A stretch of 64,000 nucleotides of DNA from Escherichia phage Turkey3: the sequence record PQ471515.1. One strand, 5' to 3'. The translations under genes were made by a program, and so were the position numbers. The notes below the pieces were generated by a model, which had not been told where the DNA came from, made no database searches, and saw nothing but the letters and a program-made list of their open reading frames with translations. Position 1 is the first letter of the stretch. The number at the start of each line of letters is the position of its first letter. Shown piece by piece: positions 56,210 through 57,514 of the stretch.

Positions 56210-56899
56210 TTAAACCATCGCTGGGATGAATTTGAATAGTTTGATACCGAAGTCACCAGCAGCATCAGCAGCTTGGGAACGTAGAACAACTTCAGTAACA
56301 CCATCTTTAGCGAGTAGTGGAACTGCGGTTAGGTCATCAATTAGTAGACGGCCTTCTTCGATCTCAGTACTTGGAACGCCTTGGAAAGATTGAATATCTT
56401 TATCAAATACGTTAGCACGTTCAACGAGGAAAGTAACTACTGAAGCACTAGCGATATCAACAGACCCAACACTTAGGATACCGTCAGCAGCGTTGGTAAA
56501 ACCAGTAACTGCAAATGGCTCAACGTCGTTGCCAGCGATTTCGGAAGTAGCGATGATAACTGCACGTTGTTGAACAACATCAACGATTCGTTTAACGTTA
56601 GTTTGTGCAGCGTAAGCAGCGTTATAATCAGCTTCTAGAGTTGCTGCTTCAAATGGAGTACCATCGATACGGATGATACCTTTTTCGTTTAGATATGCAA
56701 CGATTTCATCAGCTACGTCAGTGTTTAGGAAACGTTGTAGACCAGCGAAAGAACCAACTGCACCAGTAACACGCACGTTAACATTACCAATTTTACTAAT
56801 TGCGATAGATGCTAGGGCGTTTTTGCCACAGAAGTAACCTAGAATTTTATCAAAGGAATAACCATTGATACGTTCAAAAGAAGTATTAGTATTAGACAT
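56210..56899 (-). CDS. Probable abundant virion protein, paralogue A
   Basis: Ala/Val/Thr/Gly-rich with strongly biased codon usage; shares QQRAV(I/L)...TS...FDK blocks with the adjacent gene. Confidence 0.45.
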   Translation of the reverse strand: MSNTNTSFERINGYSFDKILGYFCGKNALASIAISKIGNVNVRVTGAVGSFAGLQRFLNTDVADEIVAYLNEKGIIRIDGTPFEAATLEADYNAAYAAQTNVKRIVDVVQQRAVIIATSEIAGNDVEPFAVTGFTNAADGILSVGSVDIASASVVTFLVERANVFDKDIQSFQGVPSTEIEEGRLLIDDLTAVPLLAKDGVTEVVLRSQAADAAGDFGIKLFKFIPAMV

Positions 56900-56914
56900 A
56901 TTGTAGTCCCCCTA

Positions 56915-57514
56915 TTATAGTTGTACTGGTAGAGCAGCACGAACTTTAATTGCAACAGCGTCAGCGGCAGCAGCATCACCAACACCATCAGTACCTAGAG
57001 CAACATAAGATTTGGTACGGAAGAATTTAGCTTGTGCAATAGCTTTAGCTAGTTCAACAGTTGGATCAACTGGAACAGAGTAAGCAGCACCTGGGCGAAC
57101 TTCTTGTTTGTCAAATACGTCTTGACGTTCACAGATGAAGGTTAGAGCAACAGAACCAGCACCACCTGTAACATCAGCACCACTAGTACCAAACGCGATT
57201 ACGTTACCACCAACGGTTTTAAAGTCAGCAGGGATAACAACAGCGGTGTCTAGAGCTAGTACGGAAGTAGTAACTAGTACTGCACGTTGTTGTAGTAGTT
57301 GGGTAATCATGAATTGGTTGTATTGAGCATTGCTGATTGCAGTTTGTAGTGCTTCATCTTGAATTTCGGAACCGTCAGAAGTAACAGCGGTAGTACCAAC
57401 TTCAACATCTGCTGGTAGATCAACAACGATGGTTACGAAACCATTGTTACCACCCCAGTATTCACGAGCAGTAGCAGACATACCATAGTTACGGTTAAAA
57501 GAATTAAGACTCAT
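56915..57514 (-). CDS. Probable abundant virion protein, paralogue B
   Basis: Paralogue of 56210..56899; AAGGAGA RBS; late-promoter-like boxes upstream. Confidence 0.45.
   Translation of the reverse strand: MSLNSFNRNYGMSATAREYWGGNNGFVTIVVDLPADVEVGTTAVTSDGSEIQDEALQTAISNAQYNQFMITQLLQQRAVLVTTSVLALDTAVVIPADFKTVGGNVIAFGTSGADVTGGAGSVALTFICERQDVFDKQEVRPGAAYSVPVDPTVELAKAIAQAKFFRTKSYVALGTDGVGDAAAADAVAIKVRAALPVQL

What the first reader, a model, noticed from the sequence alone, without database searches (positions are those of the whole stretch)
56210..57514. Convergent pair of paralogous Ala/Val/Thr-rich genes with capsid-like codon usage
The two minus-strand genes share QQRAV(L/I)...TS...(V/L)...FDK blocks, use the same biased codon set as the major capsid gene and the gene 32 homologue, carry late-promoter-like boxes upstream and are closed by a bidirectional terminator, although they sit within replication-type genes. 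I could not match them to a T4 structural protein by eye; they look like abundant late proteins of unknown function.
Basis: seen in the sequence. Interest (0 to 1): 0.4.

Follow-up and report, generated by a model that had tools for sequence, protein, structure and literature searches.

The report
Abundant virion protein pair, jumbo phage
Two neighbouring sister genes of a giant E. coli phage encode some of the best-detected proteins of the virus particle; this was already known from proteomics of related phages, but where they sit in the particle, most likely on the head shell, is unsettled.

Summary
Window 56210-57514 carries two tandem minus-strand genes (199 aa, then 229 aa). They are full-length paralogues (hhalign 98.9%, E 1e-17). 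They have the strongest codon bias in the window and match the codon choice of the major capsid gene (r 0.95/0.91) and of gene 32. They are preceded by two copies of the box TAAATAATAT, which also precedes the capsid gene. A strong two-way hairpin closes them.

The window is a RaK2-like (Asteriusvirus-related) jumbo coliphage, 99.9% identical to phage BF17. Both proteins match phrog_9326, "virion structural protein". Their orthologues were found in virions by mass spectrometry: RaK2 gp107w/gp106w have the highest coverage of that proteome, and phAPEC6 gp210/gp211 reach about 70%, like the capsid protein. So "abundant late proteins" is supported and already published.

The published guess of "tail tube" is unlikely. 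A separate tube family lies next to the sheath gene, the predicted fold is not tube-like, and codon bias exceeds that of sheath and tube genes. My best reading (about 0.45) is high-copy head-shell accessory (cement or decoration) proteins, matching densities left unassigned in 10 Å maps of phAPEC6 and 121Q. The fold has no convincing match in the PDB. Only localisation can settle this.

The parts
56915..57514 (-). First gene of the operon: 199-aa, 20.8-kDa, pI 4.5 virion protein (orthologue of RaK2 gp107w and phAPEC6 gp210)
   Evidence: ORF; phrog_9326 at E 2.6e-82; 73% identical to the K64-1/RaK2 cluster; AF2 model pLDDT 80.5; ENC 29.9
56210..56899 (-). Second gene: 229-aa, 24.3-kDa, pI 4.5 paralogue with an extra two-helix insertion of about 30 aa (orthologue of RaK2 gp106w and phAPEC6 gp211)
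   Evidence: ORF; phrog_9326 at E 3.4e-81; hhalign against the 199-aa family 98.9%; AF2 model pLDDT 81 with helices 51-58 and 63-73 that are absent from the shorter paralogue
57557..57569 (-). Proximal late-promoter-like box TGATAAATAATAT, about 45 nt upstream of the start codon
   Evidence: the same 10-mer lies upstream of the capsid gene at 45146
57620..57632 (-). Distal copy of the same box (TGATAAATAATATCATAG; the capsid gene has TATAAATAATATCATAC)
57539..57553 (-). Short GC hairpin (GCAGG-N5-CCTGC) in the predicted 5' leader; role unknown
   Evidence: and sequence reading
57520..57526 (-). Shine-Dalgarno AAGGAGA of the 199-aa gene
   Evidence: sequence reading
56900..56914 (-). 15-nt intergenic spacer with GGGGGAC ribosome-binding site and no room for a promoter, so the two genes are read as one transcript (inferred)
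   Evidence: sequence reading
56164..56195 (.). Two-way intrinsic terminator hairpin shared with the convergent + strand gene
   Evidence: -23.5 kcal/mol, z -6.5
55440..56165 (+). Convergent neighbour, a virion structural protein (phrog_13349). It is a conserved partner of the cassette in distant relatives but is not a paralogue.

Best explanation
Shown: a two-gene transcription unit (box, box, 199-aa gene, 229-aa gene, terminator) encodes two paralogous acidic alpha/beta proteins. Their orthologues are among the best-detected components of RaK2-like jumbo phage virions. Inferred: the unit is switched on with the capsid gene, because it shares that gene's upstream box and its extreme codon choice, and it yields hundreds to more than a thousand copies per particle. 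Inferred, less securely: the two proteins are accessory proteins of the T=28 head shell (cement or decoration). They would correspond to the elongated density present once per capsid subunit across local two-fold axes, and/or to the protein at the hexamer centres; both were left unassigned in the 10 Å maps of phAPEC6 and 121Q. Their N-terminal ~25 residues are highly conserved yet unfolded in the monomer model, so they would act as arms that dock onto the capsid protein or onto each other, tying capsomers together much as Soc does in T4.
For: Virion presence and top coverage in two independent proteomes. Both were prominent enough to be among the few proteins labelled on the RaK2 virion gel, at their predicted masses, hence unprocessed. 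Codon bias is stronger than in the capsid gene (ENC 29.5/29.9 against 32.6), the sheath gene (33.7) and the sheath-adjacent tube genes (38.9-42.5). Leu CTA use is 87-92%, as in the capsid gene at 84%. [quoted passage not shown] The proteins are acidic and rich in Ala/Val/Thr/Gly like the capsid protein. In the 199-aa family, 12 of 30 invariant columns lie in residues 1-28, where pLDDT is below 50 for residues 1-19.
Against: No localisation data exist. Sequence coverage is not stoichiometry. Several other small proteins also have high coverage in phAPEC6 (gp347, gp306c, gp253) and could be the decoration proteins instead. The phAPEC6 authors could not exclude that the ridge density is part of the capsid protein itself. 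The predicted fold matches no known decoration protein. RaK2 Table S3 labels both 'putative tail protein'.
Confidence: 0.45

Rival explanations
1. One of the two is the tail tube protein, as the RaK2 authors proposed in 2013, and the other is a tube-related tail protein.
For: The RaK2 paper argued from size (21-25 kDa), abundance and predicted beta-sheet content. In phAPEC6 the sheath-adjacent tube candidates have low coverage (9-30%) while the sheath has 68%.
Confidence: 0.1
2. They are internal head proteins, for example the bulk of the 91 x 18 nm inner body seen in phAPEC6 and 121Q, around which the DNA is spooled.
For: An inner body exists and none of its proteins has been identified in this phage group. 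A body of that size (my geometric estimate: tens of MDa at most) would need hundreds of copies of 20-25 kDa proteins, which fits high abundance.
Against: Both proteins are acidic (pI 4.5) and Ala/Val/Thr-rich like shell proteins. RaK2 gel mobility indicates no proteolytic processing, whereas, from my own knowledge and not checked here, known T4 internal and phiKZ inner-body proteins are cut by the prohead protease. I saw no (L/I)xE-type cleavage motif in the conserved N-terminus (sequence reading).
Confidence: 0.17
3. They belong to another high-copy surface structure, for example the anchors or subunits of the 'hairy' fibres on the head and sheath of 121Q, phAPEC6 and CBB.
For: The fibres and their anchors are unassigned. 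phAPEC6 gp211 was annotated 'hemagglutinin repeat-containing'.
Against: Pfam finds no hemagglutinin or other repeat. The models are compact alpha/beta domains, not fibrous. The family is conserved across the RaK2-like group and its relatives, including a Vibrio phage and metagenomic relatives.
Confidence: 0.1

Closest known systems
RaK2 gp107w/gp106w and phAPEC6 gp210/gp211 (phrog_9326, 'virion structural protein')
   Same: Orthologues at 72-80% identity, in the same order and orientation between RNase H and GroES. They were detected in virions by MS/MS.
   Different: Nothing of substance differs. The exact sequences of the window proteins are already in public databases, for example in phage BF17.
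T4 Soc (small outer capsid protein) and other cement proteins such as lambda gpD
   Same: The proposed role is the same: a high-copy accessory protein bridging capsomers on a gp23-type shell. Like soc, the genes lie outside the head-gene cluster, among replication-type genes.
   Different: There is no sequence or fold similarity. The proteins are 2-3 times larger than Soc. They come as a pair of paralogues. T4 soc is on the same strand as its neighbours, whereas this pair is an opposite-strand island. The capsid location is unproven.
Myovirus tail tube proteins (T4 gp19 / Hcp-like)
   Same: Similar size and high abundance; this is the published hypothesis for this pair.
   Different: No tube fold, no tube family match and not adjacent to the sheath gene. 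A separate tube family is present in the same genomes.

Membership tests
phrog_9326 (RaK2-like virion structural protein pair) | Full-length HMM match | tested here: met
   E 2.6e-82 and 3.4e-81, covering the whole profile
phrog_9326 (RaK2-like virion structural protein pair) | Conserved position: 2-3 tandem paralogues on the opposite strand between the RNase H gene and a structural-protein plus GroES pair | tested here: met
   Same layout in fEgEco12, RaK2, phAPEC6, Vibrio phage 2.275.O and two metagenomic contigs; one contig has the chaperonin elsewhere
phrog_9326 (RaK2-like virion structural protein pair) | Physical presence in the virion | not testable with these tools
   Shown for orthologues by MS/MS in RaK2 and phAPEC6, not for this phage
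Tail tube proteins (T4 gp19 / Hcp-like) | Tube fold (beta-sandwich with flanking helix) | tested here: not met
Tail tube proteins (T4 gp19 / Hcp-like) | Sequence match to a tube family | tested here: not met
   No tube PHROG or Pfam hit; hhalign against the sheath-adjacent tube family 0.2%
Tail tube proteins (T4 gp19 / Hcp-like) | Gene next to the sheath gene | tested here: not met
   In RaK2 the sheath is at 22.4-25.1 kb and this pair at 98.0-99.3 kb; ORF042-044 occupy the sheath-adjacent site
Tail tube proteins (T4 gp19 / Hcp-like) | Equimolar with the sheath in the particle | not testable with these tools
   Only indirect evidence: codon bias is stronger than in the sheath gene
Known capsid decoration families (Soc, Hoc/Ig-like, gpD/SHP, Dec) | Sequence or fold match to one of these families | tested here: not met
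   No Pfam or PDB hit; no such chain in the fold searches
Known capsid decoration families (Soc, Hoc/Ig-like, gpD/SHP, Dec) | Binding to the outer surface of the mature shell at quasi-symmetry sites | not testable with these tools
   Unassigned densities of suitable copy number exist in phAPEC6 and 121Q
T4-type late transcription unit | TATAAATA-like -10 element without a -35 element | tested here: inconclusive
   The boxes read GATAAATAATAT and the capsid gene has TATAAATAATAT. The box is enriched and confined to structural genes. The transcription start and the sigma factor are unknown.
T4-type late transcription unit | Expression late in infection | not testable with these tools
   I found no transcriptome for this phage group among the papers I read
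Prohead-protease-processed internal or inner-body proteins | N-terminal targeting peptide removed by the prohead protease | not tested
   The RaK2 gel shows predicted masses. No (L/I)xE motif was seen by eye in the conserved N-terminus.

The most novel reading that the evidence does not exclude
The pair defines a structurally new class of capsid cement. Two paralogous alpha/beta proteins with no convincing PDB counterpart would form, through conserved N-terminal arms, a hetero-oligomeric lattice that stabilises the T=28 shell of RaK2-like jumbo phages.
Probability: 0.3. Interest if true: 0.5.

Novelty: already known. Interest (0 to 1): 0.3.

Why it matters
RaK2-like jumbo phages (121Q, phAPEC6, RaK2, CBB) are candidates for phage therapy and build T=28 heads, a geometry reported so far only for 121Q and phAPEC6. 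The accessory proteins of those heads are still unnamed. These two proteins have the highest sequence coverage of the unassigned virion components in RaK2 and are among the highest in phAPEC6. Placing them would name a major part of the particle. It would also correct a published tail-tube guess that still appears as 'putative tail protein' in RaK2 Table S3. As a genome-scan finding it is a rediscovery, not a new feature.

Tried and rejected
- Pfam gave only sub-threshold noise (GLMA_C, OxRdtase_C). The phAPEC6 label 'hemagglutinin repeat' has no support.
- PDB sequence and profile searches found nothing significant.
- I first took the 887-aa ORF at 25410-28073 for the sheath and the 162-aa ORF after it for a tube. 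They are a gp5-like hub with lysozyme and a lysozyme paralogue.
- phiKp24 cryo-EM is no guide. That phage uses a different, larger capsid protein with no separate decoration protein, and a different tube.
- I recalled T4 soc as an opposite-strand late island. The T4 record shows it on the same strand as its neighbours, so only 'outside the head cluster' is parallel.
- An exhaustive profile search found only 42 clusters at 50% identity among 1.84 billion proteins. The two contexts I checked had the same synteny, so context gives no extra functional clue.
- Literature searches for a high-resolution RaK2-like capsid structure found none.

Full report
**What is there**

The finding's coordinates match two minus-strand ORFs exactly: 56915-57514 (199 aa) and 56210-56899 (229 aa). 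They are 15 nt apart, each with its own ribosome-binding site.

Upstream of the first gene lie two copies of TGATAAATAATAT, at 57557-57569 and 57620-57632. Downstream of the second lies a 14-bp GC-rich hairpin with T-runs on both strands (56164-56195; -23.5 kcal/mol, z -6.5). This hairpin also ends the convergent + strand gene.

The two genes are therefore tandem. "Convergent" applies only to the pair relative to its upstream neighbours.

**Paralogy and composition**

- BLASTP aligns the central blocks at E 9e-7.
- Family profiles align over the full length at 98.9% probability, E 1e-17.
- A joint alignment of 32 sequences keeps R8, G11, G22, N24, N66, R77 (the QQRAV block), S84 and E129-R130 invariant.
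- The longer protein differs mainly by a two-helix insertion of about 30 residues.
- Both are acidic (pI 4.5). A+V+T+G makes up 38-45% of residues, the highest values in the window.

**Expression signals**

The two genes have the lowest effective number of codons in the window (29.9 and 29.5). For comparison:

| Gene | ENC |
|---|---|
| 199-aa / 229-aa pair | 29.9 / 29.5 |
| major capsid gene | 32.6 |
| sliding clamp gene | 32.9 |
| sheath gene (close relative fEgEco12) | 33.7 |
| sheath-adjacent tube genes (fEgEco12) | 38.9-42.5 |

Their relative codon usage correlates at 0.95/0.91 with the capsid gene and 0.93/0.89 with the partial gene 32 homologue.

The 10-mer TAAATAATAT occurs five times in 64 kb, against 0.52 expected; none of 100 shuffles reached five. 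Every copy lies 35-115 nt upstream of a structural gene: twice here, and once each before the capsid gene, a 280-aa acidic head protein and a 434-aa virion protein. The capsid gene's version, TATAAATAATATCATAC, contains the T4 late-promoter core TATAAATA (T4 consensus from established knowledge).

Late timing is thus a reasonable inference, not a measurement.

**Identity of the phage and of the proteins**

- The region is 99.9% identical to Escherichia phage BF17 and 99.5% to fEgEco12. It is 82-85% identical to Asteriusvirus phages such as phAPEC6 and 121Q-like isolates.
- Protein-level relatives occur in 73 phage records, all jumbo myoviruses of the RaK2-like group and its relatives: RaK2, K64-1, GAP32, CBB, Eneladusvirus, and one Vibrio phage.
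- Both proteins match phrog_9326, "virion structural protein", at E about 1e-81. The exact sequences are already public.
- The family is small: 42 clusters at 50% identity among 1.84 billion proteins.
- Its setting is conserved. Two or three tandem paralogues form an opposite-strand island between the RNase H-like exonuclease gene and a structural-protein gene plus GroES. This holds even at 37-40% identity.

**Published evidence on the orthologues**

In RaK2, gp106w and gp107w were among the few proteins named on the SDS-PAGE figure of virion proteins. They ran at their predicted masses, so they appear unprocessed. They had the two highest MS coverages of 54 virion proteins:

| RaK2 protein | Coverage |
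|---|---|
| gp106w | 55.4% |
| gp107w | 53.5% |
| major capsid protein | 26.5% |
| sheath | 28.3% |

In phAPEC6, gp211 and gp210 have 69.9% and 69.8% coverage. The capsid protein has 74.9% and the sheath 68.0%.

**What they do: the tail-tube proposal**

The RaK2 authors proposed that one of the pair is the tail tube. Four results argue against this.

1. RaK2 ORF042-044 and fEgEco12 g297-g299 lie immediately downstream of the sheath gene. They match tail-tube PHROGs: phrog_4542 at about 1e-80, with weak matches to the general family phrog_45. They are unrelated to our family (hhalign 0.2%).
3. Codon bias exceeds that of the sheath gene, which should be equimolar with a tube.
4. In RaK2 the sheath-adjacent 25-kDa protein has coverage similar to the sheath (23% against 28%).

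One caveat: in phAPEC6 the tube candidates have low coverage, 9-30%.

**What they do: best-supported reading**

The 10 Å maps of phAPEC6 and 121Q show three unassigned components:

- a protein at each hexamer centre that anchors fibres;
- an inner body.

The pair has capsid-level or higher codon bias. It shares the capsid gene's upstream box. It has top proteomic coverage in two phages and a shell-like acidic, Ala/Val/Thr-rich composition.

The N-terminal ~25 residues are among the most conserved in the protein: 12 of 30 invariant columns in the 199-aa family fall there. Yet they are disordered in the monomer model. That is typical of an arm that docks onto a partner.

I therefore favour a head-shell accessory (cement or decoration) role, functionally like T4 Soc, at about 0.45. 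Rivals are an inner-body or internal head role (about 0.17), the tail tube (about 0.10) and fibre-related surface structures (about 0.10). None of these can be settled without localisation data.

**Novelty**

The feature is real but already known as a pair of virion structural proteins. What remains open is where they sit in the particle. The fold also has no convincing counterpart among solved structures. I found no high-resolution structure of a RaK2-like head in the literature library.

Noticed in passing
window 59901-61545 (break at about 60165): The large terminase reading frame is broken by one extra base inside the Walker A segment. Frame 0 reads ...LTARQM then RKNNRC...stop. Frame +1 continues [16 protein letters not shown]. 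phAPEC6 has the intact [22 protein letters not shown]. The same extra C (ATG C GGA AAA ACA) is present in fEgEco12 and CMSTMSU. Either a +1 frameshift is needed at AUG-CGG, or the three records share an error.
   Followed up: partly
window-wide; e.g. 45196-46371, 54138-54869, 56210-57514, 63057-64000: A set of presumably highly expressed genes (capsid, clamp, gene 32, the 280-aa acidic head protein and this pair) uses CTA for 74-92% of leucines, against 4-35% in the other genes. CTA is the rarest Leu codon in E. coli (own knowledge). No tRNA gene lies in the window, so a phage tRNA-Leu(UAG) elsewhere in the genome would be worth looking for.
   Followed up: partly
window 24884-25372 (-) and 25410-28073 (-): A 162-aa lysozyme-domain protein lies just downstream of the 887-aa gp5-like baseplate hub and is a paralogue of that hub's C-terminal lysozyme domain. 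It has its own TATAAATAATA box 23 nt upstream.
   Followed up: partly
window 10857-20858 (-): A 3333-aa ORF, the counterpart of RaK2 ORF070w, a 382-kDa virion protein detected by MS. Its function is unknown.
   Followed up: no
window 46516-47613 (+): A 365-aa HNH endonuclease gene sits directly after the major capsid gene. It may be a mobile insertion.
   Followed up: no
L005 1135-1818 (Vibrio phage 2.275.O gene 488): The Vibrio relative carries a third, more divergent paralogue of the family upstream of the pair (E 9.5e-16 against the family profile). The copy number of the cassette therefore varies between two and three.
   Followed up: partly
window 54138-54869 (+): The phAPEC6 orthologue of the sliding clamp (gp215c, 26.6 kDa), together with gene 32 and RecA homologues, was detected in purified virions. 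This is unexpected for replication proteins.
   Followed up: no
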